Positions 1-30,843 of a stretch of DNA of 30,843 nt are shown here, piece by piece. Every line of letters starts with the position of its first letter. The first letter of the stretch is position 1. Source of the DNA: a virus (taxonomy: Duplodnaviria; Caudoviricetes); IMG/VR virus record IMGVR_UViG_3300037045_000014, positions 1 to 30,843 of that record; one strand, written 5' to 3'. Under the pieces are notes generated by a model. It had not been told where the DNA came from. It did not search any database and saw only the letters and a program-made list of their open reading frames with translations. A program made the translations under genes and the position numbers.

Positions 1-127
1 GTTATTCTTTCTATCATATGTGAACATTCATGTGTTATTACATCCATATATTCTGTCCCTTTTGGATGGAAATCTAATCTTATACATCTGTCATACATTT
101 TTGCTGATTCCTTAGTATCCCAGAAAT
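1..127. repeat. Terminal overlap identical to 30717-30843 (circular contig)
   Basis: GTTATTCTTT...CCCAGAAAT at 1-127 is repeated exactly at 30717-30843. The 127-nt length matches a common assembler k-mer, and an ORF reads through the junction. Confidence 0.97.
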
Positions 128-4816: not shown

Positions 4817-5473
4817 TTATTTAATTGTTATTTCTCTATATAAGTCTTGGAAGTTTTCTTTTTTAGGGTATGATTGCAGCTCTTTTAAAATATTTAAGTT
4901 TTTCTGCAATGGATAAATATAGATATGTTGATTTGCTATTATCTTAGATACTTGATTATAATTTTCTATTAGAAATTTAGCACTTCTGGTTTTATGTCTA
5001 TGCCAGATGCTTATGTTATGGATTATTTCTCCATCTAATTTGTAGAATGATTGTGATGTGGTATATCCAAGATAAAGCCAGTTTGTAGCTTGATATATTA
5101 TTCCTAGATTTCCTTGTTTCTGGTCTGAATATGAAAGAATATATTTTATATCTTTTTTATTGGATTTGAGCCATTTAATACATTTGCCTATGGCTTTAGA
5201 TTCAGAGAACTTAGGAGCTGTGTCCAGCATTGCCATTCTTCCTAGTTCTAACATATCTTTGGTAGTAGAGTTTTCTACTAATTGGCTTGTTGTTGAGTTG
5301 CTTCTTATTGGATGGTTAAACATTAATACACCTTGCAATGTATCATCTTCAAATACTCCAAGTGTTAATTTAACACCCTTGGAAACTTTTTTACTGTAAT
5401 GATATGTTTCTATAAAAGTTTTTCCAATTTTGTAATCTATTTCTTTTACTATATAATTATTTTGTTTTCTCAT
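4817..5473 (-). CDS. Mom-family (phage Mu Mom-like, GNAT-fold) DNA adenine modification protein
   Basis: HYS, ELGRM, ESKAI and SYSDQKQGNLGIIYQATNWLYLG match the Mom-family pattern SYxDxxxGxxGxIYQAxNWxYxG; 218 aa. Confidence 0.8.
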   Translation of the reverse strand: MRKQNNYIVKEIDYKIGKTFIETYHYSKKVSKGVKLTLGVFEDDTLQGVLMFNHPIRSNSTTSQLVENSTTKDMLELGRMAMLDTAPKFSESKAIGKCIKWLKSNKKDIKYILSYSDQKQGNLGIIYQATNWLYLGYTTSQSFYKLDGEIIHNISIWHRHKTRSAKFLIENYNQVSKIIANQHIYIYPLQKNLNILKELQSYPKKENFQDLYREITIK

Positions 5474-10308: not shown

Positions 10309-10696
10309 TTTTTCTAAAGTTTCTTAATCTTTTATATTGTTTTTCTTTAAATTCAAAAGCAGCTTTTTCTTCTTCCCATTCTCTTAGAGCTTTTAAATCT
10401 GGATCTTCATATTCTCCAGAATCTTCTAATGCTATTTCTGCTTCTATTTCTTTTCTATCATAATAATAATCTATAAAGTTTTCATAATGTTTTAATGGCT
10501 CTGTTACTTCTGCTATAGTCATTTTCATGTTTTGTAGTTGCATTTTTGCAGTTCTCCATGCTGATTTAATTCCTTCTGTATTTCCTGCTTTCTTTACTTT
10601 CCAGCCTGCTTTCATTATTGCAGCTCTGTTATAGCTTACTTGTCCATCTTCTGTTATATATATAAATCCTTGTTTTGCTATTTTTAATAATTTCAT
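10292..10696 (-). CDS. Hypothetical early protein (134 aa)
   Basis: RBS AAAGGAG; YNRAAIMKAGW...KSAWRTAK motif; overlaps the rep start. Confidence 0.75.
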   Translation of the reverse strand: MKLLKIAKQGFIYITEDGQVSYNRAAIMKAGWKVKKAGNTEGIKSAWRTAKMQLQNMKMTIAEVTEPLKHYENFIDYYYDRKEIEAEIALEDSGEYEDPDLKALREWEEEKAAFEFKEKQYKRLRNFRKNGGIN

Positions 10697-10712
10697 TTTT
10701 ATATACTCTCCT

Positions 10713-10895
10713 TTATATAGTTAATTTTTTATATTCTTCTTCTATTAAACCAGTTATTAAATCTCTTAGAGTTAAACCAGTTAAATCTATTAATTCATTT
10801 AATTTTTTATTTTCATCTTCTGTCACTCTTATTTGTCTTTGCCTCATTTCTCTGGCTTGTCCATCTCTATCAGTATAATTACTTTGTGCTATCAT
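10713..10895 (-). CDS. Ribbon-helix-helix (CopG-like) regulator, 60 aa
   Basis: Beta-strand QRQIRV followed by two helices (TEDENKKLNELIDLTG, TLRDLITGLIEEEY); first gene of the rep operon; RBS AAAGGAG. Confidence 0.7.
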   Translation of the reverse strand: MIAQSNYTDRDGQAREMRQRQIRVTEDENKKLNELIDLTGLTLRDLITGLIEEEYKKLTI

Positions 10896-10930
10896 TTTTT
10901 TAAACTCCTTTTGCTATCAGTGTGGTATCA
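10887..10930. promoter_or_regulatory. TGSTATCA direct repeats, putative RHH operator
   Basis: TGCTATCA at 10887 and 10912 and TGGTATCA at 10923, flanking the RBS and start of the RHH gene. Confidence 0.5.
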
Positions 10931-11577
10931 CACTTTATTTTTTTAAAGAGACTTGATTGCCTCTATCTAATTATTACTATATGGCTATATCCATTTTACA
11001 TTTCACTTCTAAAATTTTTTTAGAATAGCTGTTGATTCCTTTTGCATATCTCATATACACCTTATGAGACTTTTTGATTATAGTTAATTATAGTTCTGGC
11101 CAGAACATTTTTGTCTTACATTATTATTAATACCATATATATATTATTAATTTACACTTTTTTGGATTTTTTTTAAAAGATTTGTTTTTAGGAAATGACT
11201 ACTATTTACTCTGTGTTCCAGCTGATTAATCAAGCTTTTATTCTGTAGCTGCCTTTGGCCTATAAAGTCTTATTAGCTTTCTTCATATGATCTATGATCT
11301 TCCTCTAGCATTGTTATCAGTACCTCAGTTTTTATTACCTTCTCTGTTTCCCTGCTATGTGAGTTCTTAGTGCTGTTGCTCTATCTCCACTACTTTTATT
11401 AAGTTATTAATTGCTTCTGTGTTCTTGTTTATTCAGTATTCATTATTAGTTAAGTAGCTACTCTTACTCAGACATACATGTGTATGTCATAGGCTTGTTA
11501 TCTGCTGTGATTGCCATCTCTGGATTCTCTTGCTGTTTCCTGCCCTTCATTTGCTCTACTATTTATCTTGTAAATAC

Positions 11578-11606
11578 ATAGTAACACCATATAAAAAATA
11601 ATGCAA
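11578..11606 (-). promoter_or_regulatory. Sigma-A promoter facing the non-coding ori-like region
   Basis: TTGCAT-17 nt-TACTAT with a TG extension. Confidence 0.65.
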
Positions 11607-11725
11607 TAGGTTTACATAATTTTGTGAAACTTTTTTCTTTTAATGTTCCTCAATATAATATTAGCAATAATTTTATCTTTATTACACATCTATTTTAAAA
11701 AATATAGCCACTAAATTAATAGCAG

Positions 11726-12466
11726 CTATTTATATTTATCTATAAACATTTGTAATGCAATATTTAATAAATCATGTTGTCTATATTCTCCATATTTTGC
11801 CTTCCAGATGCTGTTAAATTCATCCATTAATGGTTTATGAACTCTAATAGTTGTTCTTGTTGCTGTTTCTTCATAATTTTTTACTGGTAAAGATGTATCT
11901 ATTATTTCTACATCATAATCTGGCTCTGGTCTTTCTTGTGTCATTGCTATTTCAGATTCAATTAATTTAGTATTATTTTTATTTTCTATCTCTACAGTTT
12001 TTGACATGTAATATTCTATTATAGATAAAACTCTTTCATTTTGATCTCTATCATTATTCATTATAGATACTAATTGATTTTGAGTATTTGTTTCTTTAAT
12101 TTGATAATCTTTTATAATATCCAGCATTTTATTATTTTGATCTAATTGTTTATCTTCTTTTTCTTTGTATTCATTTATAATGTTTAAAAGCTCCTGCTGC
12201 TGCTCTAGCAGTTTTTGATTCTCTTCTTTTAATTCTGTAGCTATATTATCTTTGGCAATAGGTTTAAAACTTGTCCCATCTTTAGGGACAAAAGTATTAT
12301 TTCTTTTGCTGTAGCCTCTTCCATTCATAAAATCATTTATAACTCTTTTGCTTCTTACTTCAAAGTAATCATTTAATTGGTCTGCTGTATAGCCTTGACC
12401 TAATAGCTCCAGTACTAATGCTTCTCTTTCAGCTGGAGTTAATCCATACCATTCATGTTTATTCAT
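11726..12466 (-). CDS. HTH / coiled-coil / RHH DNA-binding protein (246 aa), candidate plasmid maintenance factor
   Basis: N-terminal HTH-like region (LLGQGYTADQLNDYFEV), central Q/E/K-rich coiled coil, C-terminal RHH (RTTIRVHKPLMDEFN...QHDLLNIALQMFIDKY). Confidence 0.7.
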   Translation of the reverse strand: MNKHEWYGLTPAEREALVLELLGQGYTADQLNDYFEVRSKRVINDFMNGRGYSKRNNTFVPKDGTSFKPIAKDNIATELKEENQKLLEQQQELLNIINEYKEKEDKQLDQNNKMLDIIKDYQIKETNTQNQLVSIMNNDRDQNERVLSIIEYYMSKTVEIENKNNTKLIESEIAMTQERPEPDYDVEIIDTSLPVKNYEETATRTTIRVHKPLMDEFNSIWKAKYGEYRQHDLLNIALQMFIDKYK

Positions 12467-12490
12467 TCTATTATAATCACCTCTAAAAAC

Positions 12491-12524
12491 ATTATATCAT
12501 ATTGTGGCATACATGTGACATACA
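12491..12524 (-). promoter_or_regulatory. Promoter of the 246-aa gene overlapped by tandem GRCATACA sites
   Basis: TGATATAAT extended -10 at 12491-12499; GGCATACA at 12506 and GACATACA at 12517. Confidence 0.6.
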
Positions 12525-12601
12525 CTCTGCATATTGTTCTAAAAAGGTGGTTGTGATACAATTAATAAACATAAATAAGCTATTAAAAGGAGCTGTTAAA
12601 T

Positions 12602-12910
12602 ATGACAGATAAAAAAGATATGGAAGTTGATCTTGATACTGGCACTATAAATATTCCTACTGTTGGTACTATAGATATACAAATAATAATTGATGCATAT
12701 GAAAGAATTAAACAAAGAGAAGGAATAGCTGCTGCTCTGGCAGAAGGTAAACATATAGGAAGGCCAGCTAATGTTCCAGATGATTTTGTAGAATACAATA
12801 ATAAAGTAGTTGATGGTTTTATATCTGTACCAGAGGCTATTAAACAACTTAATATAAGTAGAGCTAAATTCTACAGATTAAAGAAGAAGCATGAAGAAGG
12901 GCAACTATAA
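12602..12910 (+). CDS. Serine resolvase C-terminal fragment (arm plus HTH, no catalytic domain)
   Basis: ERIKQREGIAAALAEGKHIGRP and LNISRAKFYR are resolvase C-terminal motifs; the YxRVS catalytic motif is absent; RBS AAAAGGAG is intact. Confidence 0.8.
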   Translation: MTDKKDMEVDLDTGTINIPTVGTIDIQIIIDAYERIKQREGIAAALAEGKHIGRPANVPDDFVEYNNKVVDGFISVPEAIKQLNISRAKFYRLKKKHEEGQL

Positions 12911-19717: not shown

Positions 19718-21688
19718 TTATAGCCACCTCTCAGTTAATGTTACAGTAGAAAATATTTCAGCATCATCAGAATGAATTTTAATATTTGTATCACCAGAAC
19801 CTAGCTCAAAAAATTGTGAGCCTATATCTACATGTTGCATAAATGGTTCATCATTTAAATAAACCATGTTAGTGCTACAGTCTATTTCTAATTCATCCCC
19901 ATTCTTAAATATTTTTTGATTAACTGTTGAATCTACTGTATTTAATTGATTAATAGAAAGATGTGTTAATGTCATTTCTACTGGAGATTTGTCTTTAAAA
20001 GCTCCCATGTATAAAACTACATTATTTAAACTTCCTTTTGGATATGAATCAGAAACTAGATTTGCTGTATGAATTGTTGTAACAACTTTACCATCTTTTA
20101 TTTTATTTACTTCACAATACCATTGATGTTTTCCATTAATGGTTTTTCTTCTTACTTTGATATTTCCATAGAACTCATTCCATTTTCCATATTTTCCAGA
20201 TAAGTCATTTACAGTTACTTCTTCACCTTTATCATTTTTTTCTTTTTTAGTTAAAGGTTTTGGAACAGTTCCATCATCTTTTAAAACTATATTATTGCCT
20301 ATTTGTACTTGTGGATGTGTATATTCATACCATTCATTAGCATCTGTTAGCATCATTTTAAATAATTTCTGTCCATTAGAATCAAAGCCATAAAGTTCAA
20401 TTACTCCTAATTTATTGTCTGCTGTATCTTCTCCATTAAAAACAGTTGCACTTGCTGTTTGAGTTAAAGCTGTTAAATATTGAGTTGAAACATAGCCAGT
20501 ATATCCTTTATAAGTAGTTTTGCCCCAGCCTCCAGATATTTCTGATACATTTATTGATGTTCCATTAGGTATAGTTAATATTATTTTATAGCCAGTGCCT
20601 CTGCCACTTCTTAAATTAAGATTTGCTGTAGTTCTATGAGTTGAATTTACAGCAGCTACCAGCTTTAAATACTGCATAGAACAATAACCAGTAATGTTTT
20701 TATAAGTAACTTTACCCCAGCCAGATGCTATGTCAGTTACAGTTATTTTAGTTCCACTTGGCATTGTAGTTAAAACTTTATTGCTTGTGCCTCTGCCACT
20801 TCTAATATTTAAATTTGCTGTTGTTTGATATTGAGAATTAGATGGAGTATTTAAATTATTAGATACATTTTTACCTTTGGAATCATGTTCAAAAGTAGCA
20901 ACTACTTCAAAATCTTGTACATTAGTCCCCAGATTCCTTCTAACAGCTGGCCCATGCCACTTTTGATCTGTAGTTGTACCAAAATTGCTGGCTTTAATTC
21001 CATAGCCACCACTATTTATAGTAACTCCACCTTCTACTAATCTATCTGTATCAACTACATTCCCAGCAGAAAGCCAGCTAGTAGTTACCTCACATGGATC
21101 TTGAAGATGTAAAGTTTTATTAGCTTGTGAATTTTTGTCTGCATTAGTCCATTCTCCTATCAAAACTGCTTTTCCAGTATCAGCATTAGTTACTTGAACA
21201 AAGTGTGCATCTTTAGAAAAGTTAGTTTTAATTATTGGATATGCATCTGTAGTTCCATCATTTTTAGCAGTAATCAAATTAGTTCCTTCAAATAGTTTAT
21301 ATTCATTAGAATAAATCATTGGATCATAACAAGTAAAATTTACTTTACCTTCTCCAACTCCTACAGATATTTCATCTATTTCAACTTTTCCATCTGGTAC
21401 AGAATAATAATATGAAAGTTCATCACCCAGATATAGCCTAGAAGGTGCATCTACATCTAATGCATTGGCTATATCTGTTACATATTGGCTGTATTCATAT
21501 GAGTTGTCTGGTCTTACTATAAAAGTAATTTCTATTTCTCTTGTCCCATATTTAAAGCCATTGTATAGTTCTCCATGTCTTGATGGAATATCTATAGATA
21601 TATTTTTTCTATTTGGAATGGCAGAAGTATTAACTGTTCTTACTTGGAACAAGTCAGATAATATAATTCCTGCATATTTAACATACAT
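19718..21688 (-). CDS. Distal tail protein (Dit) with two inserted SH3b domains
   Basis: Follows the tape measure gene; Dit-like ends (FTCYDP, FFELGSG); two ANLNxRSGRG..GW.K..Y....GY SH3b repeats; likely start 21688 (RBS AGGAGG). Confidence 0.85.
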   Translation of the reverse strand: MYVKYAGIILSDLFQVRTVNTSAIPNRKNISIDIPSRHGELYNGFKYGTREIEITFIVRPDNSYEYSQYVTDIANALDVDAPSRLYLGDELSYYYSVPDGKVEIDEISVGVGEGKVNFTCYDPMIYSNEYKLFEGTNLITAKNDGTTDAYPIIKTNFSKDAHFVQVTNADTGKAVLIGEWTNADKNSQANKTLHLQDPCEVTTSWLSAGNVVDTDRLVEGGVTINSGGYGIKASNFGTTTDQKWHGPAVRRNLGTNVQDFEVVATFEHDSKGKNVSNNLNTPSNSQYQTTANLNIRSGRGTSNKVLTTMPSGTKITVTDIASGWGKVTYKNITGYCSMQYLKLVAAVNSTHRTTANLNLRSGRGTGYKIILTIPNGTSINVSEISGGWGKTTYKGYTGYVSTQYLTALTQTASATVFNGEDTADNKLGVIELYGFDSNGQKLFKMMLTDANEWYEYTHPQVQIGNNIVLKDDGTVPKPLTKKEKNDKGEEVTVNDLSGKYGKWNEFYGNIKVRRKTINGKHQWYCEVNKIKDGKVVTTIHTANLVSDSYPKGSLNNVVLYMGAFKDKSPVEMTLTHLSINQLNTVDSTVNQKIFKNGDELEIDCSTNMVYLNDEPFMQHVDIGSQFFELGSGDTNIKIHSDDAEIFSTVTLTERWL

Positions 21689-21689
21689 C

Positions 21690-24227
21690 TTATAGCACAC
21701 CTCCTAGTCTATTTCTTCTTGTGTTTATTTTGTTAATTGCCCCATCAGTATATTTGGCAGTTTGACTTGCAATTGTTTTACTATCTAAATAAATTGCTGT
21801 TGTCATGTGTTGGTTATTTGAATTGGAATTTTTACCACTAGATACAGCAGCTCCAGATGCAGATACACCATGAGGCATAACAGCAAAACTTCTTAGCATA
21901 GCTGGCTTAGATACAGTAGAAACTGTAGTAGTTTTGGAAATGTTTATTTTTGAATTAATAGGCTTGCTTAAAGCACTTCTTAATCTATTAAAATCAGATA
22001 TTGCAGAATTTACAGCACCTTTTATATTAATAGCACTTCTAACTGTATTCATGTTACCTTGTACAGCATAAGATAAACTTCTAATAGAGTTACTAGCTCC
22101 ATTATATAAGTTACTAAATTGGTTTCTACCTACATTAGCTAAATTTACAAAAGAAGTTTTACAGCCATTATACATAGAGCTGCAAGCTGTTCTTGCATTA
22201 TTTGCCATGCTGCTAAATGAAGTAGATACTCCATTGTACATTGAACTCATAGAAGATCTTGCTACATTTGCTAGACTGCTAAAAGAAACTTTTGCACCAT
22301 TATACATGTTAGTTGCTGACTGCTGTAATGCTTGTGTAGCTGCTGCCATTTCTTGTGCTGCTGCTGGTGATAATTGAGCTAAACCTTCTTTAGCTCCATC
22401 TGTTGTTGCTTGTCCTACTTCTTTACCTTTAGCCTTTGCAGTCTCTTTAGCACCAGCTGTAGATTCATTAACTGCTGTATCTACAGTAGCTTTAACACCT
22501 TCTTTATTAGTATTAATTCCTTCTTTAACACCATCAGAAAACTGCTGACCAGTTTTAGTACCTTCTGCTTTTGGCTGTTCCCCTTGTTGTTTAATAAGGT
22601 TATCTACTATAGTTTTAACTTCAGGACTTAATTCAGCTATTTTTGTTTTAACACCATTGATATATGCATAACCAGATTCTTGACCATTGACTTGAATACT
22701 TGTAAAAGTATCTTTAGAAAATAAAGACTGTGTTAATGAAGGGCCTTTGCCAGTAAATACTTGACCACTAGAAGAAAGCCATGCTGTAGCAGCCTCAGCT
22801 CCTGCTTTAGATGCATCAGCTTTTGCTGGAGCCCAATAATTATCATTCATTGGTTTATACTTACTTCCAGCCTGCCAGATACCTTCCCAGACACCTCTTA
22901 TAAATTCTCCACCAACTTCTAAACCTGCTTGAAATATCATAGTTTTATAGTCTAAAAATAAATCAACAGCTGTTCTTGTTATATTATAAACTGCACTATG
23001 TAAAGCATCTTTATTGTTTTCTAGACCAGTTCTAATAGCATTTATAATAGTTCTTCCAGTAGCCTCTATAGCTGGCATGTTTTGATTTATCCATGATGTT
23101 ACTTGTCCTATTAAACTTGTTATCCCAGCACTTATATTGCCTTTATTTATTTCTATTCCTTTTGCTATGTTTTGGACTATAGCTCCACCAGCAGCCATTA
23201 TAGCTGGTAAACTACTGTTAATAAAACCAGTAATACCACTAATCATTTGACCCATAGCTTTTGGAATACTGTCAGACATTTGAATTATTTTGTCAGATAT
23301 ATATTTAGTCATATAATCTATAGCAGCCATTAAGCCTTGATCTGCTAATATATTTTTAGTTTGATCTAATGCAGCTCCAAAATCTTTAATGGATGCTATA
23401 GCTGGCCCTAGCATATTTGCACCCAGAACAGCTAAAAATTCTTTGAATGAGAATTTTAAATTACCTATAACATTTTCTAAATTGTCTGCTTCTCTTGCAG
23501 CTTGTCCCATTGCTCCAGATTCTTTATAAATCTTTCCAGATATATCAAGCATTAAGTTTTGTTTTTCTGCTTCTGTAAGCTTTTGCCACTTCTTACCATA
23601 CTTATCCATTGCAGCTGTATTTCTTTGAGATTCAGAAGTAAATAGACCTATAGAGTCCCCAGCCTCAGTATTACCTCTAATAAAACTTCTAAGTTTTAAA
23701 ACAGCATCTTCTAAAGGAATGTTATAAGCAGCTGCTGCATCAGCAGCCAGTCTCATACCTTTTTCAGTTAGTCCCAGTGCTTCTTTTGATTCAATACCAG
23801 AACCTTTTAACTGCATGAACATATCTGTAAAGCCTTGCTTTAATCTACCAGAAACAACACCAGTTTCTTTGGCCATCTTATCCATTGCTTTAGTAGCAGT
23901 ATCAGTTAAACTTCCAAAAGTCTGCTTAAACATGGAATCCAGAGCTTGGAACTCCCCAGCCATATTTACAGCAGCAGCAGTTATTCCACCTACAGCAGCA
24001 CCTATTTTAATAGATGCACTTACAACAGCTTTAGCAGTATTAGCAAACCATTTAATTGATTCAGTCCCTAATTTTACATATGCTTTAGCAGCTCCAGCAA
24101 CTACTTTTCCTATGCTTTCTACTTTACTTTTAAAGTCAGTTACAGCAGCCATTGCATCTTTTAAACCAGATTTAAATGCAGCAGCATCTAAAGATAATCT
24201 AATCATCATGTTTCTATTATTAGACAT
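21690..24227 (-). CDS. Tape measure protein
   Basis: 845 aa, Ala/Gly-rich helical protein with 22-aa MYNG repeats near the C-terminus; follows the tail chaperones. Confidence 0.92.
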   Translation of the reverse strand: MSNNRNMMIRLSLDAAAFKSGLKDAMAAVTDFKSKVESIGKVVAGAAKAYVKLGTESIKWFANTAKAVVSASIKIGAAVGGITAAAVNMAGEFQALDSMFKQTFGSLTDTATKAMDKMAKETGVVSGRLKQGFTDMFMQLKGSGIESKEALGLTEKGMRLAADAAAAYNIPLEDAVLKLRSFIRGNTEAGDSIGLFTSESQRNTAAMDKYGKKWQKLTEAEKQNLMLDISGKIYKESGAMGQAAREADNLENVIGNLKFSFKEFLAVLGANMLGPAIASIKDFGAALDQTKNILADQGLMAAIDYMTKYISDKIIQMSDSIPKAMGQMISGITGFINSSLPAIMAAGGAIVQNIAKGIEINKGNISAGITSLIGQVTSWINQNMPAIEATGRTIINAIRTGLENNKDALHSAVYNITRTAVDLFLDYKTMIFQAGLEVGGEFIRGVWEGIWQAGSKYKPMNDNYWAPAKADASKAGAEAATAWLSSSGQVFTGKGPSLTQSLFSKDTFTSIQVNGQESGYAYINGVKTKIAELSPEVKTIVDNLIKQQGEQPKAEGTKTGQQFSDGVKEGINTNKEGVKATVDTAVNESTAGAKETAKAKGKEVGQATTDGAKEGLAQLSPAAAQEMAAATQALQQSATNMYNGAKVSFSSLANVARSSMSSMYNGVSTSFSSMANNARTACSSMYNGCKTSFVNLANVGRNQFSNLYNGASNSIRSLSYAVQGNMNTVRSAINIKGAVNSAISDFNRLRSALSKPINSKINISKTTTVSTVSKPAMLRSFAVMPHGVSASGAAVSSGKNSNSNNQHMTTAIYLDSKTIASQTAKYTDGAINKINTRRNRLGGVL

Positions 24228-24597
24228 TATTTATTTCACCTACCTTGTTGTTTTCAAATACATTTAATAGGTAGTTTAATTCTTCTTTTTTCTTTTCTGG
24301 ATCTATTTTTTGTCTGCTGTTTTTTTCTTTAGAATCATTAAATAGGTTTAATTCTTTAAACTTTTTACCAGCTTTAATGTATCCATATGCATTATAAGAA
24401 GCAGTAAAAGTTATATTATACATTGCTCTTTGTCTATTCTCATAACCATTGATTATTAAGCCAATTTCATATGGATTAGAATTATAAAATGATTCTGGAG
24501 CTATTCCTATTTCTCCAACAGCAAAAGTATATAATCCAGATATGTATTCTAAAAAAGAAGAGGGAGACTCTACAGCCTCCCTAGTATCTACTTTCCC
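24220..24597 (-). CDS. Tail assembly chaperone extension (gpT-like), reached by -1 frameshift
   Basis: The -1 frame is open from GGG AAA at 24597 (GKVDTREAVESPSSFLEYISGLYTFAVGEIGIAPESFYNSNPYEI...) through the 67-aa ORF to the stop at 24220. Confidence 0.8.
   Translation of the reverse strand, partial: GKVDTREAVESPSSFLEYISGLYTFAVGEIGIAPESFYNSNPYEIGLIINGYENRQRAMYNITFTASYNAYGYIKAGKKFKELNLFNDSKEKNSRQKIDPEKKKEELNYLLNVFENNKVGEINNV
24561..24597 (-). other. Programmed -1 ribosomal frameshift site (GGGAAAG plus stem-loop)
   Basis: G GGA AAG at 24591-24597 just before the chaperone stop codon; hairpin AGGGAGGCT-GTAG-AGTCTCCCT at 24561-24582. Confidence 0.8.
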
Positions 24598-24902
24598 TTA
24601 TCAGAATTTGATTGTCCCATTGCTTTAGTTAATGCAGTTGTAATTTTTTCAGTCATTTCTGCCATGTCTCCACCTTCTTCTAAGAACTCAGACATTATTT
24701 CTCCTGCTTTTTCTAATGTTAAATCTTTTTTATAATATCTCATTAAAGCATAATAAAATAATTCTCTAAAAGTAGATATAGTAAATGCTTCATTGTCTAA
24801 ATTCATTACATCAAAACCATTTGCATCCATTAAGCATAATGTATTTATATCAAATGCTAATAAATAGTCTTTATTATTTATTTTTATTACTGTATTTGTC
24901 AT
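24588..24902 (-). CDS. Tail assembly chaperone (gpG-like)
   Basis: Between the tail tube and tape measure genes; INNKDYLLAFDINTL N-terminus; ends at the slippery site. Confidence 0.85.
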   Translation of the reverse strand: MTNTVIKINNKDYLLAFDINTLCLMDANGFDVMNLDNEAFTISTFRELFYYALMRYYKKDLTLEKAGEIMSEFLEEGGDMAEMTEKITTALTKAMGQSNSDKGK

Positions 24903-24939
24903 GTGTTTGTTCTCCTACTCATTTTTAAATTTCTGTATT

Positions 24940-24968
24940 AAAAAAACTGCTATACTCCTAGCAGTTTA
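24940..24968 (-). terminator. Terminator after the tail tube gene
   Basis: AAACTGCTA-GGAGTA-TAGCAGTTT followed by TTTT. Confidence 0.75.
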
Positions 24969-24971
24969 TTA

Positions 24972-25376
24972 TTATGGTACTGGAACTATTTCTGTTAAAG
25001 CTCCAACACCTTCAAAATCCATAGAATATGTCATTGCATCATCATATGGAGCATCTATAGATAAAGTTGTTATTATAGCAGATCCAGTATATCCTATTGT
25101 TTTTCCTTCATCAGATAATCTTATTGTTACAGCAGTTCCAGCATTAAAAGCAGCTACAGCAGCTTTATATCCAGTATCACTTATAAAACATATACCTTCA
25201 CAACTTGAAGTCCATGATTTAGCACCACTTATTTTAGCAGTCCAGTCTCCAGTTGTTTTAGTTGATACATCTAATGTTTCAGAAGTCATTTCTATAGATG
25301 CACCTCTTTGTCCACCTATTGCAGTTTCCCCCACATATATCATAAGGTCTAAACCTCTTTTTGCTTCATTTGCCAT
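24972..25376 (-). CDS. Major tail (tube) protein, TP901-1-like
   Basis: IGGQRGA, DVSTKTTGDW...GAKSWT and IDAPYDDAMTYS..FEGVGAL motifs. Confidence 0.92.
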   Translation of the reverse strand: MANEAKRGLDLMIYVGETAIGGQRGASIEMTSETLDVSTKTTGDWTAKISGAKSWTSSCEGICFISDTGYKAAVAAFNAGTAVTIRLSDEGKTIGYTGSAIITTLSIDAPYDDAMTYSMDFEGVGALTEIVPVP

Positions 25377-25427
25377 GTTTGTTAATTCCTCTCTAGTTAG
25401 TTTTTTTGCATAAAAAAAGAGCCATGT

Positions 25428-25811
25428 TTAATAGCTCTTGATTTCAAATATTAGTACACCATGATAGATAGTGCCTTTGTTTGGTATGTCTTTAGGTAAC
25501 ATTGCTTTCATATCTTCTGTAATTACTGTTGAATGTTCTAAAGAAATCATATAGCCATTTATAATAGCTCCATCTAATAGAATTTCTATGTCTTGGATAA
25601 TTTCTTTAACTTCTTTAGAACCTTTATAATTAGAAAAAATATCTATATATTGCATTGTCCTATGTCCTTTTGATGTTTTAGTTTTATTAGGACTACTGAA
25701 AGTGCTACTAATTCTTACAAAAGGAAATGGAGCATCTTCTTTAACATAGTCATAAACATCATAAGGAAGTTTATTTAATTCATCATATATAATTTTTTGT
25801 ACATCTAGCAT
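25428..25811 (-). CDS. Tail terminator / DUF3168-like protein
   Basis: VYDYVKEDAPFPFV, IDIFS..KG..EVK and YHGVL motifs; position before the tail tube gene. Confidence 0.82.
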   Translation of the reverse strand: MLDVQKIIYDELNKLPYDVYDYVKEDAPFPFVRISSTFSSPNKTKTSKGHRTMQYIDIFSNYKGSKEVKEIIQDIEILLDGAIINGYMISLEHSTVITEDMKAMLPKDIPNKGTIYHGVLIFEIKSY

Positions 25812-26165
25812 TTATAACAGCCTCCTTATTATCCTGCTTACTTGGTTTTCAAACTTTTCTATATGTTTATCATAAGCTGGGTTCAAATAAGGTTTTGCTG
25901 CCATCTTATATGTTCCATACTCTACATAATCTGCATATTCTACATTAGTTCCTACTTCTGCTTCTGGATTAGTTTCACTTGGTTTAAAGTCAGTAGTTAT
26001 AGAACCTCTTAGCCTTCCAGTATCTACTGGAGCAGCTAACTTAGCAGATCTTTCTATATTAAAAGCTGTATCTCTTACTGCTATATTTAATTCTGGCATT
26101 ATCTCAGTTGCATCTTCAAGACTAGCCAGAACATCTGCTATATCTAAATTCATTCTTATCTTCAT
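25812..26165 (-). CDS. HK97 gp10-like tail completion protein
   Basis: AKLAAPVDTGRLRGSI...VEYADYVEYGT..MAAKPYL motif. Confidence 0.92.
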   Translation of the reverse strand: MKIRMNLDIADVLASLEDATEIMPELNIAVRDTAFNIERSAKLAAPVDTGRLRGSITTDFKPSETNPEAEVGTNVEYADYVEYGTYKMAAKPYLNPAYDKHIEKFENQVSRIIRRLL

Positions 26166-26461
26166 TATTTATCTATCTCCATAATGTATAGCATTACTTT
26201 TCCATAATCAGTGAATGTCATATACTTGTATGTCACATCTTTATAATTAATAGCAAAGTCCTGCAAATCTATTTTATTTTTAGTAAATAACTTAATAACT
26301 TGATGGTTAATTTCTCTTCCACCAGATATTATATTTTCTATAGTTATAGGAGCTAGAGCAGCTTTAATAGTAGAGTGTTTTATATATTCATTAGTTACAC
26401 CACCATAGCCATCAGAAGTAGATATATTTGAATAAACATCTATATTATTATTAAAATTCAT
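26165..26461 (-). CDS. Head-closure / head-tail adaptor protein
   Basis: SDGYGG motif; between the connector and gp10-like genes. Confidence 0.75.
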   Translation of the reverse strand: MNFNNNIDVYSNISTSDGYGGVTNEYIKHSTIKAALAPITIENIISGGREINHQVIKLFTKNKIDLQDFAINYKDVTYKYMTFTDYGKVMLYIMEIDK

Positions 26462-26770
26462 TTATAAAGTCCTTAATCTCTTTTTATTAGATGCTTTATA
26501 CTCATTTAATATAGAGCTATATTCAGATAATGGAGCATCTTCAAAGTCATTCTTAATAACATCTATTGATTCTGCTTTTAATCCTTCTGAGCCTATTTTT
26601 CTAAATCTTTTAATGGCTATTTCTTCTGCTATCCATGCTAGTTTGGCTGGCAGAGTTTCTTGTGTAACATATAAGCAAATTAAATTAGATGCATCTTCTA
26701 AAAGCATAGTCAATAATGCATCTTGGTTATTATCAGTTATAGATAATTTTAATTTAATTCTAGTAAGCAT
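26462..26770 (-). CDS. Head-tail connector protein (SPP1 gp15-like)
   Basis: IKLKL.I....QDALL...LP..L.WI..E.AIKRF.KIGSEG..ES motif. Confidence 0.88.
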   Translation of the reverse strand: MLTRIKLKLSITDNNQDALLTMLLEDASNLICLYVTQETLPAKLAWIAEEIAIKRFRKIGSEGLKAESIDVIKNDFEDAPLSEYSSILNEYKASNKKRLRTL

Positions 26771-26895
26771 TATTTTTCACCAGCTTTCTTAGTAGCTGGC
26801 TTTTTAGGTTTAGGCTCTTTTGGTACTTCTATTTTAATTTCTGGTTCAACTTCTAATGGTTGTACTCTTCTTCTTCTAAATAGTCCTATGCCCAT
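26770..26895 (-). CDS. 41-aa basic, Pro-rich protein after the capsid gene
   Basis: MGIGLFRRRRVQPLEVEPEIKIEVPKEPKPKKPATKKAGEK*; RBS GAAAGGA; TAATG coupling to the connector gene. Confidence 0.7.
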   Translation of the reverse strand: MGIGLFRRRRVQPLEVEPEIKIEVPKEPKPKKPATKKAGEK

Positions 26896-26915
26896 TCTTA
26901 TCAGTCCTTTCTAAT

Positions 26916-26940
26916 AAAAAAAGAGGCTGATATGAGCCTC
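26916..26940 (-). terminator. Terminator after the major capsid gene
   Basis: GAGGCT-CATATC-AGCCTC followed by TTTTTTT. Confidence 0.8.
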
Positions 26941-26968
26941 TAATTTACTTATGTCTATTTAATTGTAA

Positions 26969-27772
26969 TTAAGCAGCAGCTATAGTAACTTTTATAGCTT
27001 TTGATGCATCTCTTAAATATGCAATAAAGTGCTTATCTATTGCATATACATTTGTTTTAGTTAATATATCTCTGTCAGATTCTACATTAGTTTCTCTTTT
27101 TAACTCTATGCCTACAGCACCTTCTTTAACTATATACATTTCAGTAGTAGTTACTTTATTAGATATAACAACATTTACACCATATATCATTCCTATATGT
27201 CCAGTAACTTTTGCTTCTCCATTTGCTATGTGAACAAAATCAGCTGACTTTCTTATAGCACCATAATGAGCTGGGTTCATATATACATACATTGTATCTT
27301 CTATATCTTCTCCAAACTTTAATACAGCATCTGCTACAATATCTACTGTTACAGCTCCAGTATGTGCATGAACCATGTTACCAGTTATTGCTCTTAAAGC
27401 AGCAAAACAGTCATTATCTACTTTATTAGCTATAGAATGTAATAATTGAGTTGCTACTTCATTTACTGGATCTCCATATCCAGATAATATTGATTCATCT
27501 GTTAATTCAACAGCTTTAGCAGCCTTTTTAACAGTTACTTGTGTAGAACTTGCTTGCAATAATACTGGAACATCTGCTTCACCTTCTGCTAGATCTGCTG
27601 CATCTCCTATGTACTGATACACTGGTATAGTTAAAGAATGTCCTGCTTGTCCTTGTAAATCTCTACCTATTCTAGCTAAAGGAGCTAGTTTTATTAAGTC
27701 AGTTAATTTAGCATCTATAAATGCTCCTAATTTCTCTGGGTTTATTAGATTTGTTAATTTAGTCATTGCCAT
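26969..27772 (-). CDS. Major capsid protein (N4-gp56-like family)
   Basis: MAMTKLTNLINPE..., L.GQ.G..LTIP...YIGDA..LAEG, ELTDE..LSGYGDPV and VESDRDI motifs; start moved to 27772 (RBS AGAGGA). Confidence 0.93.
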   Translation of the reverse strand: MAMTKLTNLINPEKLGAFIDAKLTDLIKLAPLARIGRDLQGQAGHSLTIPVYQYIGDAADLAEGEADVPVLLQASSTQVTVKKAAKAVELTDESILSGYGDPVNEVATQLLHSIANKVDNDCFAALRAITGNMVHAHTGAVTVDIVADAVLKFGEDIEDTMYVYMNPAHYGAIRKSADFVHIANGEAKVTGHIGMIYGVNVVISNKVTTTEMYIVKEGAVGIELKRETNVESDRDILTKTNVYAIDKHFIAYLRDASKAIKVTIAAA

Positions 27773-27887
27773 GTTTTTTAATTCCTCTCTTGAATTGAAT
27801 TTTAGATTTGATTTGTGATGTGCTTTTTTTTGCACTAAAAAAGAGCCATAGATAATTGGCTCTTGAATTTATATTAAAAGTTGTTTA

Positions 27888-28445
27888 CTACTGCATGCTT
27901 ATAAAATCAGTAAATGACATGTTCTTAGTATCAGTAGTAGAAGTAGTTTGAGTAGGAGTAGATGGAGTAGTACCTTTAGTTCTTTCTACTACAGTTTTAT
28001 CTAACTGTGTCTTATACTCTGATTCAAATAAATCTAAGTTGCATCTTGTTTCCTCTTCTGTAGAGCCAACAAAATACTTTACTAATGCAGCTGGTAAACC
28101 ACTTTTACTAGCTAATTCTGTTGCTTGTGATGTTAATTTTTCTCTTGTAGCCTCTTGCTTTATTTGCTCCATTTGCTGCTTTAATTCTCTTATTTGCTTT
28201 TGCTCTGGAGTTTCATTAGGAAATCTTTTTGCTATTTCCTCATTCATTATTTTTTCTAAGTTATTTTGTTTCCAAGAATCTAAACCTTTGTTAAAGTTTC
28301 TATCCATTCTTGGTTGTAGTACCTTCTTACCAGATTCAGAATCTAAGTAATTGTTTACTACATCATCATTAACTAAGTTAGCCAATAAGTCAGTTTTAAG
28401 TGCCTCATTGTCATTTAATAATTCTAATATTTTTTCTAAGTCCAT
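27888..28445 (-). CDS. Capsid scaffolding protein (DUF4355-like)
   Basis: Charged coiled coil, GLDSWK..NL..PNETPEQK.I.EL; directly upstream of the capsid gene. Confidence 0.85.
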   Translation of the reverse strand: MDLEKILELLNDNEALKTDLLANLVNDDVVNNYLDSESGKKVLQPRMDRNFNKGLDSWKQNNLEKIMNEEIAKRFPNETPEQKQIRELKQQMEQIKQEATREKLTSQATELASKSGLPAALVKYFVGSTEEETRCNLDLFESEYKTQLDKTVVERTKGTTPSTPTQTTSTTDTKNMSFTDFISMQ

Positions 28446-28599
28446 TGTTACACCTCATATTTTGCCCTTATAGTCAAGTTAGCCTATAAGTTCATATTTT
28501 TATATTTATTGTTCTTTAAAGCCTGCAATAAGTAAAAAAGGCATAAAAAAAGAGCCTCTTAAATGCTCTCTGTGTTCATTCTAGAACTTTGTTATTTTT

Positions 28600-28926
28600 T
28601 TATTTAGATATGAAAGTTATTGAATATGTTGATGCATCATCATATGGAGCATCAATTTTAATATCTTCAACTTTTATTCTTATTTCTTTGTTGATATAGC
28701 CTTTAATTTTTAGCATTAATTCTTTGTCATCTATATAAGAGTTAAATACCTTTTTCATTGCTTTATCCTCTTTTGCACATATACCAGAGCAAATTATTTT
28801 CATGCTCTTATCTTTACAAAGATATACTTTAGCATCTGTTTGTCCTTGTATTTGATTGTATATATAGCCATCTTCTGTATTAGTTCCAACTAATATCATA
28901 GTGTAAATTCCTCTTGATATTTCCAT
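28600..28926 (-). CDS. Diverged, internally deleted paralog of the tail tube protein
   Basis: Collinear matches to 24972-25376: RGIYTMILVG/RGLDLMIYVG, IQGQTDA/IGGQRGA, KSMKIICSGIC/KSWTSSCEGIC, IDAPYDDASTYS/IDAPYDDAMTYS. Confidence 0.8.
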   Translation of the reverse strand: MEISRGIYTMILVGTNTEDGYIYNQIQGQTDAKVYLCKDKSMKIICSGICAKEDKAMKKVFNSYIDDKELMLKIKGYINKEIRIKVEDIKIDAPYDDASTYSITFISK

Positions 28927-28958
28927 AATTAATCATCACCTTTGTTTTTTTGTATAAT

Positions 28959-28985
28959 AAAAGAGCAGCTATTTAAACTGCTCTT
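28959..28985 (-). terminator. Terminator after the 137-aa gene
   Basis: AAGAGCAG-TTTAAATAG-CTGCTCTT followed by TT. Confidence 0.75.
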
Positions 28986-28993
28986 ACTTTGTT

Positions 28994-29407
28994 TTATTGA
29001 TTCCTTGCAAAATTATAAAAATCTTCATTTTCTTTAATTTGTTTTTGCACTTGTTCTTCTGTTTGATATGTATAATCACATGAAGGACAATGCATTTTAT
29101 TTTCCAGCTTATTATTAACAACAGCTCTGAGTTGACCATCTTTATCATAGCACTTTATACAATATGGTCCTTTTTCATCTACCCAGTATGCTCCATCTCT
29201 TAATTCTATTTTTCCTTTTACTTCTAATTGCATTTTTAATATATCTAGTTCACTTTGTAATCTTAAGTTTGCTTTAAGAAACTCATTATTTTCAGTAACA
29301 ACTTTAAGTACACTTTGTTGTAAATTTATTATTTCTTGTGTTAATTTTGTGTTATTTATCCCTTTTGCTATAGTTAAAACACCTTGTATTGCTGTAAGTG
29401 GATCCAT
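28994..29407 (-). CDS. Coiled-coil plus Zn-ribbon accessory protein (137 aa)
   Basis: GPYCIKCYD...CPSC; RBS AAAGGAG; followed by its own terminator. Confidence 0.78.
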   Translation of the reverse strand: MDPLTAIQGVLTIAKGINNTKLTQEIINLQQSVLKVVTENNEFLKANLRLQSELDILKMQLEVKGKIELRDGAYWVDEKGPYCIKCYDKDGQLRAVVNNKLENKMHCPSCDYTYQTEEQVQKQIKENEDFYNFARNQ

Positions 29408-29481
29408 TTATTCCATCTCCTTTATAGTTTTATTTATTTTGATTGTACTATAAACTAATGGTAATAGTGTCCATTTCTTAA

Positions 29482-29546
29482 TTATTTAATATCTTTATTA
29501 TTTTGTTTTTCTCTCATATACCCTTCAAATTCTTTTTTTGCCCAGT
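29482..29546 (-). repeat. Diverged duplicate of 30345-30409 (3' half of the 47-aa gene)
   Basis: 65 bp with 8 mismatches, all transitions; encodes WAKKEFEGYMREKQNNKDIK* with no in-frame start. Confidence 0.85.
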
Positions 29547-29652
29547 TTAAAATACATTAGAGTTAATTCTAAAATATTATCTAATAAGAAAGTTCACCTA
29601 GTTTGTAATATTATGGTATTATTAGAATATTAAGGTACAAGGGGGTTTTAAT

Positions 29653-30318
29653 ATGTCTAATTTTTCAGATTCTATTCATAGTAGAGAAATACATGATTAT
29701 AATATTCATGGAATAGTTAATAGTTGTCCATCCTGCAATAAAGGTATAAAGCCTACATATATATCTCATGTGCCTTTTTTAAAAAAGTTGGTTGTGATAG
29801 AAAGTTGTCCCTTATGCCAAGAGCTTATAATATCTATTTTTAAATATGATACTATATATCTAAAAAGATGGATGTTATACACTACATATCCATATAATGA
29901 AGATCCAGAAAAATTTAGTAGTGAAGTTACATTTATATCTGAGAGTTTTGTTAATATTTACAATCAAGCTAAACTAGCAGAAACAGTAGGACTAAAAGAT
30001 ATATGTGGAATGGGATATAGAAAGGCATTGGAGCATCTAGTTAAAGATTATGCAAAATTAGAATATCCAGAAGAGTCTTCTTCTATAGATAAAAGACCTT
30101 TAAAACAATGTATAGAAGCATATATACAACATCCAAAAATGAAATCTTGTATCTTAGGTGCAACTTATTTAGGCAATGATGAAACTCATTACATTAGAAA
30201 GATTGCAAATAAAGATATAGAAGATTTAAAAATATTAATTAAATTATCTACCTTATGGATAACTATGAATGAAGCTACAAAAAAATATGAATTAGATCCA
30301 GAGCTTAACATTAAATAA
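29653..30318 (+). CDS. DUF4145 (HEPN-like) protein with N-terminal Zn ribbon; moron
   Basis: CPSC...CPLC, GMGYRKALE.LVK and LGNDETHY motifs; opposite strand to the late genes; RBS AAGGGGG. Confidence 0.8.
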   Translation: MSNFSDSIHSREIHDYNIHGIVNSCPSCNKGIKPTYISHVPFLKKLVVIESCPLCQELIISIFKYDTIYLKRWMLYTTYPYNEDPEKFSSEVTFISESFVNIYNQAKLAETVGLKDICGMGYRKALEHLVKDYAKLEYPEESSSIDKRPLKQCIEAYIQHPKMKSCILGATYLGNDETHYIRKIANKDIEDLKILIKLSTLWITMNEATKKYELDPELNIK

Positions 30319-30355
30319 ATAAGACATACAAATGTATGTCTTATTTATTTAATGT
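30308..30355. terminator. Perfect 23-bp inverted repeat between convergent genes (bidirectional terminator)
   Basis: ACATTAAATAAATAAGACATACA-AA-TGTATGTCTTATTTATTTAATGT. Confidence 0.85.
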
Positions 30356-30488
30356 CCTTGTTATTTTGTTTTTCTTTTATATATTCTTCAAATTCTTTCT
30401 TTGCCCAGTCTGGAGCATCTTCTTTAATAGTCCAGTTACAGTAGTCAAAATTAACATAATCCATAAAATCTTGGTACATTTCAGACAT
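30345..30488 (-). CDS. 47-aa protein coupled to the MuF gene, candidate immunity or partner protein
   Basis: MSEMYQDFMDYVNFDYCNWTIKEDAPDWAKKEFEEYIKEKQNNKDIK*; TAATG overlap with the MuF stop. Confidence 0.72.
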   Translation of the reverse strand: MSEMYQDFMDYVNFDYCNWTIKEDAPDWAKKEFEEYIKEKQNNKDIK

Positions 30489-30843
30489 TATTTTTTCAAC
30501 TCCCTATTAATTATTTTAAGAATCTCTTTAGATATTGGTTTTGCTTTATCTCCATTAGATATAGCATCTGCAAATGATTCTGCCATAAATTCAGCCTCAT
30601 TATAAGTAGCATATTTAGATAATGATTGAGCCACTAATTGTTTATCTTTTATAGATGTAATTCCAAGATAACTTAATGCCTCATTAGTAACTTTAGGAGC
30701 AAATTCATTCCAGTCAGTTATTCTTTCTATCATATGTGAACATTCATGTGTTATTACATCCATATATTCTGTCCCTTTTGGATGGAAATCTAATCTTATA
30801 CATCTGTCATACATTTTTGCTGATTCCTTAGTATCCCAGAAAT
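30488..30843 (-). CDS. C-terminal metallopeptidase part of the MuF minor capsid protein (continuation of 1-1361)
   Basis: THECSH (HExxH) and SKYA...EFMAESF; in frame with the ORF starting at 1361 after circularisation (1590 nt in total). Confidence 0.9.
   Translation of the reverse strand, partial: FWDTKESAKMYDRCIRLDFHPKGTEYMDVITHECSHMIERITDWNEFAPKVTNEALSYLGITSIKDKQLVAQSLSKYATYNEAEFMAESFADAISNGDKAKPISKEILKIINRELKK
30717..30843. repeat. Terminal overlap identical to 1-127
   Basis: Exact match to the window start. Confidence 0.97.

What the first reader, a model, noticed from the sequence alone, without database searches (positions are those of the whole stretch)
28600..28926. Loop-deleted tail tube paralog in the accessory island: candidate dominant-negative tail decoy
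Seen: the 108-aa protein aligns collinearly with the phage's own tail tube protein, including 21 identical nt (28633-28653 = 25035-25055). It lacks the roughly 20-aa segment SETLDVSTKTTGDWTAKISG and the C-terminal arm, is more Lys-rich, and sits between two terminators among accessory genes, 3 kb from the tail operon. Known: in siphophage tube proteins an extended loop in this region mediates polymerisation, and loop mutants of lambda gpV are dominant negative. Inference: it could join and cap growing tubes, poisoning tail assembly of superinfecting related phages or tuning its own assembly. This would be a defence made from a structural-gene duplicate.
Basis: partly seen in the sequence, partly recalled or inferred. 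Interest (0 to 1): 0.8.

Follow-up and report, generated by a model that had tools for sequence, protein, structure and literature searches.

The report
Loop-less tail tube decoy gene family
A small bacterial virus carries a second, shortened copy of its tail-tube gene that lacks the loop used to stack tube rings; close relatives swap it for a very different shortened copy or an unrelated gene, so it likely acts as a decoy in conflicts with host defences or rival viruses.

Summary
28600-28926(-) encodes a 108-aa relative of the phage's TP901-1-type tail tube protein (TTP). It keeps the predicted tube fold but lacks the ~20-aa beta2-beta3 stacking loop and the C-terminal GxGAL tail. It is not a fresh self-duplicate: orthologues (66-77% identical) sit in the same slot between MuF and the scaffold gene in relatives with other head modules.

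New here: phages 96-99% identical around this slot carry one of three things in it. These are this allele (A), a second loop-less TTP derivative only ~30% identical (B), or an unrelated 192-aa gene. The gene is therefore dispensable and exchangeable. Both alleles keep TTP-invariant residues at the inferred head-facing end and have lost the loop-end invariants and the acidic lumen face.

Function is untested. No conserved own promoter was found, and the leader resembles the TTP gene's, which points to late co-expression. I favour a soluble decoy for TTP-recognising defence proteins (~0.36) over dominant-negative tail interference (~0.30). A relaxed or repurposed remnant is ~0.2. The 21-nt repeat and the terminators carry little weight. 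Six literature searches found no report of such a family.

The parts
28600..28926 (-). Loop-less tail tube paralog, allele A (108 aa)
28633..28653 (-). 21 nt identical to the TTP gene; encodes the DAPYDDA turn between the last two strands
28937..28942 (-). Ribosome-binding site (AAGGTG), also present upstream of allele A in L027 and L028 and of allele B in L093
28961..28985 (-). Terminator-like hairpin 34 nt before the start, with a weak T-tail; a similar hairpin precedes alleles A and B in relatives and the TTP gene
28551..28569 (-). Terminator-like hairpin with T-run between the paralog and the scaffold gene
   Evidence: not listed by the scan
24972..25376 (-). True major tail tube protein, TP901-1 family (134 aa)
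   Evidence: PF06199 E 1.3e-19, above cut-off
25224..25283 (-). Codons of the beta2-beta3 stacking loop (TTP residues 32-51), absent from the paralog
24975..25004 (-). Codons of the C-terminal tail (TTP residues 125-134), absent from the paralog
25035..25055 (-). TTP copy of the 21-nt tract
25417..25439 (-). Terminator-like hairpin upstream of the TTP gene; its end and the A-run behind it match the paralog's leader at 23 of 26 nt
27888..28445 (-). Head scaffolding protein, downstream boundary of the variable slot
   Evidence: PF14265 E 2.6e-25
28994..29407 (-). 137-aa accessory gene in the slot (no family above cut-off; CxxC pairs); absent from L027, L028 and L029
29483..29546 (-). Second, partial copy of the 3' end of the small post-MuF ORF
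29653..30318 (+). 221-aa accessory gene (PHROG 1305 E 2.6e-33; weak DUF4145), between the two copies of the small-ORF end
30345..30488 (-). 47-aa acidic ORF directly after MuF; upstream boundary of the slot in all relatives seen

Best explanation
The gene encodes a tail-tube-fold protein without the ring-stacking loop and C-terminal tail, which is likely made with the virion genes and would act as a soluble decoy that occupies defence proteins recognising the real tail tube protein. Shown: homology, the deletion, the position upstream of the TTP gene in the late gene order, dispensability, and exchange between two divergent loop-less alleles and an unrelated gene. Predicted: the tube fold. Inferred: late read-through expression; that it stays out of the phage's own tail; that it binds a TTP sensor or tail-assembly inhibitor (DSR2-like) without triggering it, as DSAD1 does with a different protein; and that allele swapping tracks different sensors.
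For: Expression context: same strand, upstream of the scaffold, capsid and TTP genes; a leader like the TTP gene's; no conserved sigmaA-like promoter (at most 7/12 in the window; the 9/12 site in L027/L028 lies upstream of the hairpin and is not kept in the window or L093), whereas the 192-aa replacement gene has 10/12. The counter-defence anti-Tab is encoded in a late operon (PMC10884400, Discussion). Dispensable: the complete genome G003 has one TTP-like gene only and is 96-99% identical to L027 outside the slot. Two alleles ~30% identical occur between flanks 98-99% identical. Core-facing strand positions stay hydrophobic. At 12 inferred lumen positions all 5 loop-less proteins scored have 2 acidic, 2-3 basic and 3-4 bulky hydrophobic residues, a pattern in 0 of 37 TTPs, so it is unlikely to be a DNA-conduit subunit. 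DSR2 binds TTP monomers, DSAD1 blocks it by competing for the site, and a small deletion in the TTP hairpin halves activation (PMC11850899, PMC11087589, PMC11263360; passages). Loop or C-arm removal stops self-polymerisation of the monomeric SPP1 TTP (PMC8718954).
Against: No binding to any sensor was tested, and the host and its defences are unknown. Avs16, a TTP sensor, is modelled to contact the very hairpin that is missing (PMC13581612). DSR2 buries nearly the whole TTP domain, yet the paralog's surface is much changed. Promoter calls in 70% AT DNA are weak (35 sites found against 40.9 in shuffles). dN/dS is clearly below 1 in only 1 of 3 pairs. The lumen change may reflect relaxed constraint plus AT pressure. 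The YSD1 loop deletion forms hexamers, not monomers. The neighbouring slot genes match no PADLOC model.
Confidence: 0.36

Rival explanations
1. Dominant-negative tail interference. The one-faced subunit would join TTP rings sideways, or bind the loops of incoming subunits like a false growing end, so that rings of co-infecting or superinfecting phages fail to stack. Alleles A and B would target different TTP lineages.
For: [quoted passage not shown] The hairpin gives 93% of inter-ring contact area in YSD1, and its deletion forms rings. TTP-invariant residues kept in A and B (G8, G22, Q23, G61, D67, A109, Y117; P110, Y111, D113 in A) map by strand order to the head-facing end. Those lost (D36, K40, W45, G123, G125, L127) map to the loop end (mapping inferred, no coordinates inspected). 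The gene is accessory and allelically exchanged.
Against: No conserved own promoter, so it is likely made with the phage's own TTP, and allele A is closest to the window's own TTP group (36-38%): self-poisoning is expected. No antidote gene was identified, whereas Tab needs both constitutive expression and anti-Tab. Other near-invariant TTP residues are also lost (A76, G98, A100, T103). No integrase or resolvase was found in 2 of 2 complete genomes, so a carrier state is assumed, not shown.
Confidence: 0.3
2. A relaxed or repurposed remnant: an old TTP duplicate that lost its loop and either drifts under AT pressure or uses the beta-sandwich for an unrelated job.
For: dN/dS 0.69 and 0.61, not significant, in the two pairs with L028. 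FYMINK share 0.44-0.48. Long branches. Absent from some close relatives. Only 2 representatives among 1.84 billion match the allele A profile.
Against: Full-length frames in all 15 cluster members listed (8 A, 7 B), apart from 9-residue start-call variants. dN/dS 0.31, p=1.6e-4, for window against L027, within the 0.30-0.58 of five other genes in that pair. The hydrophobic core alternation is kept in both alleles despite ~30% identity. A model built without TTP rows still ranks tube-fold proteins on top.
Confidence: 0.2
3. An optional modulator or minor part of the phage's own tail, for example a brake on premature TTP polymerisation or a spare ring at a tail end.
For: It lies in the late gene order with a TTP-like leader. 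Tube-fold rings also build Dit hubs and terminators.
Against: The phage already has a terminator (PF11367) and Dit (PF05709, PF22768). A complete near-identical relative with the same TTP lacks the gene. Two alleles 30% alike occur in phages 98-99% alike around the slot, and the acidic lumen pattern is lost.
Confidence: 0.1

Closest known systems
TP901-1-family tail tube proteins (PF06199; monocin MttP 8QHS/9J1J, RcGTA tube 6TBA)
   Same: Fold: Z 13.1-13.6, rmsd 2.6-2.9 A over 99-106 residues for the TTP-guided model; GQ, CxG and APYDD-TY motifs.
   Different: No beta2-beta3 loop, no GxGAL tail, no acidic lumen pattern; below the Pfam cut-off; second copy outside the tail cluster; dispensable.
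Engineered loop mutants of lambda gpV, SPP1 gp17.1, YSD1_22 and T5 pb6
   Same: The same loop is removed or altered. These fail to polymerise, are dominant negative (lambda, SPP1) or stop at hexamers (YSD1).
   Different: Those are otherwise wild type. This is a natural gene only 31-36% identical to its phage's TTP.
DSAD1 (anti-DSR2 of phage SPbeta)
   Same: Phage protein that competes with TTP for a TTP sensor: the proposed mode of action.
   Different: The passages read do not describe DSAD1 as a TTP derivative; no DSAD1 comparison was run here; no sensor is known for this phage.
Tab and Tai tail-assembly-blocking defences
   Same: Small accessory phage genes that block tail assembly of other phages.
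   Different: Tab acts through the tape measure protein, is constitutive and has a late-operon antidote. Neither is described as a tube-protein paralog in the passages read; both come from Proteobacteria.
Prophage FimU mimics (PMC12952977, search listing only); SaPI Ccm capsid paralog (recalled, no call)
   Same: A copy of a structural subunit used to interfere with an assembly.
   Different: They target the host pilus or a helper's capsid, not the tail tube.

Membership tests
TP901-1-family major tail protein | Sequence homology to the family | tested here: met
   PHROG 1407 E 3.6e-7; hhalign 97.6% for A and 95.2% for B
TP901-1-family major tail protein | Score above the curated PF06199 / TIGR02126 cut-off | tested here: not met
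   16.9 against 23.8 bits; 14 against 37; allele B 21.5 against 23.8
TP901-1-family major tail protein | Beta-sandwich plus one helix (tube fold) | tested here: met
   Predicted only: pLDDT 88 with TTP rows, Z 13.7. Without TTP rows pLDDT 52, same strand order; tube-fold proteins fill ranks 1, 2 and 4-11, but Z is only up to 7.4
TP901-1-family major tail protein | Beta2-beta3 stacking loop | tested here: not met
   20-21-column gap in A and B; D36, K40, W45 absent
TP901-1-family major tail protein | Acidic or polar lumen face | tested here: not met
   Inferred lumen positions: 2 acidic, 2-3 basic, 3-4 bulky hydrophobic, against 3-6 acidic and at most 1 basic or bulky in 37 of 37 TTPs
TP901-1-family major tail protein | Gene between tail terminator and tail chaperone; essential | tested here: not met
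   Lies between MuF and scaffold; absent from complete genome G003
Tail-assembly-blocking defence (Tab/Tai type) | Own promoter for expression in the non-lytic state | tested here: inconclusive
   No conserved sigmaA-like site, but the scan has little power in this DNA; no RNA data
Tail-assembly-blocking defence (Tab/Tai type) | Cognate late antidote gene | not tested
   None identified; not searched for systematically
Tail-assembly-blocking defence (Tab/Tai type) | Blocks tail formation of other phages | not testable with these tools
   Needs plating and electron microscopy
Anti-defence competitor of a TTP sensor (DSAD1 type) | Binds a TTP-sensing receptor without activating it | not testable with these tools
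   Host and sensor unknown; no genome in the species collection held allele A or the slot motif
Anti-defence competitor of a TTP sensor (DSAD1 type) | Homology to DSAD1 | not tested
   No DSAD1 sequence was compared; the family scans that were run gave tail-tube hits

The most novel reading that the evidence does not exclude
These phages keep an exchangeable family of natural tail-tube decoys: TTP copies stripped of the stacking loop and tail, swapped as alleles in a late-operon slot. They either soak up TTP-sensing immune receptors or poison the tails of rival phages. Either would be a conflict weapon built from the virion's own subunit.
Probability: 0.6. Interest if true: 0.85.

Novelty: new variant of a known kind. 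Interest (0 to 1): 0.72.

Why it matters
Tail tube proteins are both an essential polymer and a pattern that bacterial immune receptors (DSR2, Avs16) read. Loop-less tube proteins were known, in what I read, only as laboratory mutants. A natural, exchanged family of them gives two ready-made, divergent reagents for a direct test of whether phages use trimmed copies of their own structural proteins as anti-immune decoys or as assembly poisons. It also suggests a search pattern: second, below-threshold copies of structural genes lacking their polymerisation elements, which automatic annotation labels as 'tail tube protein' or hypothetical.

Tried and rejected
Complex prediction of 4 TTP + 2 paralog chains gave no verdict (score 0.00, controls not folded); it is not used for or against binding.

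No RNA holder was listed. Laying two runs' contigs on the region covered too little to use.

No orthologue of allele A was found in the viral collection (one search returned only full-length TTPs), in the species-genome collection or among named phage records, where the 20 of 35 hits listed were major tail proteins or weak Enterococcus phage matches. Allele B had no match in named phages or plasmids and one locus in the viral collection. The slot motif was absent from the species genomes, so the host was not identified. The last homolog search found no third allele.

The 61 terminase-related loci showed no loop-less gene within the DNA held; most are distant phages or end before the tail genes.

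The sequence search of solved structures with the paralog profile gave only chance hits. Atlas look-alikes were unnamed clusters at 0.89-0.91. PADLOC gave nothing for the neighbouring slot genes and a negligible DpdF hit (E 0.014) for the paralog. Earlier scan notes held nothing.

Rejected: recent self-duplication as the source of the 21-nt tract; terminators as a mark of a separate island; 'capping' as the geometry. My early idea that the 8-aa insertion proves origin from another TTP lineage is not settled: allele A is closest in identity to the window's own TTP group. The primary SPP1 paper was not held and the lambda paper was not read, so dominant negativity rests on a review.

Full report
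Setting. The window is a complete circular phage genome: 127-nt terminal repeat, classed as direct terminal repeats, 100% complete, 30% GC. It has SPP1-like portal, MuF, scaffold, capsid, connectors, terminator, TP901-1-type tail tube protein (TTP), chaperone, tape measure, Dit, Tal and amidase. No tyrosine integrase or resolvase was found in it or in a complete relative (0 of 2). A clostridial host is inferred from composition and from one close TTP named 'Clostridium sp.'; it is not shown. On the minus strand the order is MuF, a 47-aa ORF, two accessory genes, the finding, scaffold, capsid and onward to the TTP.

Observation. The ORF, the homology, the 21-nt tract, the loop gap, the short C-terminus and the Lys excess are all real. 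Against TTP alignments the gap is one block of 20-21 columns. It aligns with the equivalent segment of the solved monocin and RcGTA tubes, which I take as the beta2-beta3 loop from the fold described in reviews. AlphaFold2 with TTP rows gave pLDDT 88 and the tube order of strands and helix. The best matches were monocin and RcGTA tube or neck rings (Z 13.1-13.7). That model is biased by the TTP rows. A model from paralog rows alone was poor (pLDDT 52) but still placed tail tube, Dit, baseplate and Hcp chains in 10 of its top 11 rows, at Z 5.9-7.4, a range the tool warns is common.

The 21 nt are beyond chance (0 of 100 shuffles), but orthologues match the window TTP at 19 of 21, and the L027 orthologue matches its own TTP at 16 of 21: this is a conserved motif, not a recent copy. 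Hairpins flank the TTP and other structural genes too. Lys excess is part of a general drift to AT-rich-codon residues.

Relatives. A search of 5.8 billion proteins gave 3 hits: the window's own and two at 75% and 66%. Three metagenome contigs carry it (L027, L028, L029), each right after MuF and the small ORF. In L027 and L029 it precedes a scaffold and capsid with no tblastn match to the window's, and the portal is 35% identical; L028 ends before the scaffold. The paralog is better conserved between window and L027 (78%) than the TTP is (62%). dN/dS was 0.31 (p=1.6e-4) for window-L027, within the 0.30-0.58 of five other genes in that pair, but 0.69 and 0.61 (not significant) for the two pairs with L028.

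The slot is exchangeable. L030, part of the complete genome G003, is 96-99% identical to L027 on both sides but holds an unrelated 192-aa gene there and has a single TTP-like gene; L092 is the same type. L093, 98-99% identical to L027 on both sides, holds a 105-aa protein with the same loop gap and the same early end, only 29-32% identical to allele A. It is TTP-derived too (hhalign 95.2%; PHROG 1407), and one cluster member is annotated as tail tube family protein. Of 7 distinct contigs where I saw the slot, 4 hold A, 1 holds B and 2 hold the 192-aa gene. Cluster tables list A on 52 contigs (8 sequences), B on 82 (7 sequences) and the 192-aa gene on 205 (15 of 16 members listed); I did not see the context of those contigs.

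A and B probably share one origin. A profile of A run over 1.84 billion representatives returned only A and B. A and B group with support 0.91 on 89 shared columns, and B matches A at 9 of 37 positions where A is unlike TTPs, against 4.1 in shuffles (p=0.012). Long branches, shared composition and the shared gap could inflate all three results.

What was kept and lost. Of TTP columns at least 85% conserved, both alleles keep G8, G22, Q23, G61, D67, A109 and Y117, and A also keeps P110, Y111 and D113. Both lose D36, K40, W45, G98, A100, T103, G123, G125 and L127, and 4 of 5 lose A76 to Ser with Asn in the fifth. By strand order the kept set lies at the end opposite the loop, and the loop and tail losses lie at the loop end; this is inferred, as I had no coordinates. 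In YSD1 the N-terminus faces the head and the hairpin the tip, and the hairpin gives 93% of inter-ring area (PMC7385642, passages). In 80alpha, rings are added through the stacking loop (PMC7048315, passages). So this would be a one-faced subunit: able to receive a loop but with none to give, which does not fit 'capping the growing end'. At 12 alternating positions inferred to face the lumen, all 37 TTPs have 3-6 acidic and at most one basic or bulky hydrophobic residue. The five A and B proteins scored have 2, 2-3 and 3-4, while most core positions stay hydrophobic. The protein is thus unlikely to line a DNA channel. Whether the change is a new binding face or AT-driven drift cannot be told.

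Expression. The leader is hairpin, T-run, A-run and ribosome site, like the TTP gene's (23 of 26 nt). The best sigmaA-like score is 7/12 in the window and 8/12 in L093. A 9/12 site in L027 and L028 lies upstream of the hairpin and is not conserved. The 192-aa replacement has 10/12 and only a weak hairpin. This suggests late read-through, but the scan has little power here and there are no RNA data.

Mechanism. Late co-expression makes a tube poison dangerous to its carrier, above all in the window phage, whose own TTP group is allele A's nearest (36-38%). Tab solves this with constitutive expression plus a late antidote (PMC10884400, abstract and Discussion); neither is evident here. A decoy has no such problem. 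DSR2 captures TTP monomers, DSAD1 blocks it by competition, and trimming the TTP hairpin halves activation (PMC11850899, PMC11263360, PMC11087589; passages). Loop or arm removal stops SPP1 TTP self-polymerisation (PMC8718954, PMC7666168; passages). Against this, Avs16 is modelled on the missing hairpin (PMC13581612, passages), and no sensor or host is known. I put the decoy at 0.36, dominant-negative interference at 0.30 (precedent: PMC9022992, passage; primary papers not read), a relaxed or repurposed remnant at 0.2 and an own-tail modulator at 0.1. The first two are close, and one experiment separates them.

Novelty. It is not a member of the functional TTP family (loop, lumen, position and cut-off tests not met) but derives from it. 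Six full-text searches returned Tab, Tai (PMC11364771, passages), DSR2/DSAD1 and pilin mimics (listing only) but no natural loop-less TTP paralog. The library omits most subscription papers, and no supplements were read. PMC10721106 (passages) added nothing used here. Interference by a structural paralog has a recalled precedent in the SaPI Ccm capsid protein, so I file this as a new variant of a known kind, with interest 0.72.

Noticed in passing
L093:2824-3138 (-): Allele B, a second loop-less TTP derivative in the same slot; cluster of 7 sequences on 82 contigs; one member is annotated as a tail tube family protein.
   Followed up: yes
L030:5233-5811 (+); also L092: 192-aa gene of no known family (Pfam, PHROGs, NCBIfam, PADLOC) with a 10/12 sigmaA-like promoter, replacing the paralog; its cluster is on at least 205 contigs. 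Candidate defence moron.
   Followed up: partly
window 1-1361 and 30488-30843 (-), with 30345-30488: 529-aa MuF spanning the origin, with a C-terminal HExxH metallopeptidase-like region followed by a 44-47-aa acidic ORF. This is the layout of MuF polymorphic toxin-immunity pairs (PMC5576092, passages); the domain match is below cut-off.
   Followed up: partly
window 29483-29546 and 30372-30438: The 3' end of the small post-MuF ORF is present twice, flanking the opposite-strand DUF4145-like gene, suggesting cassettes are added at this sequence.
   Followed up: partly
window 24561-28985 (-): Terminator-like hairpins precede or follow most high-copy structural genes (scaffold, capsid, connector, TTP, chaperone); 16 found in 24400-30843 against 1.7 in shuffles. 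This implies read-through control or mRNA processing in the late operon.
   Followed up: no
window 30308-30355: Perfect 23-bp inverted repeat between the convergent DUF4145-like gene and the small ORF; likely a two-way terminator.
   Followed up: no
window 8308-12910: No integrase or resolvase; instead a 666-aa replication-like protein (PHROG 25531, weak CHC2 zinc finger), a weakly NikA-like 60-aa protein, a 246-aa PHROG 2727 protein and an HTH protein. G003 has counterparts of three of these. A plasmid-like or lytic lifestyle is open.
   Followed up: partly
window 4817-5473 (-): Mom-family DNA modification gene before the small terminase; no match at that place in L027, so another variable anti-defence position.
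   Followed up: no
L027:9631-11234 against window 26969-28445; L030:6679-7482: Scaffold and capsid are swapped for proteins with no tblastn match between the window and L027, although flanking genes are homologous; the L030 capsid is only 80% identical to L027's amid 98-99% neighbours.
   Followed up: no
window 19718-21700 (-): The Dit carries two inserted SH3_3 domains.
   Followed up: no
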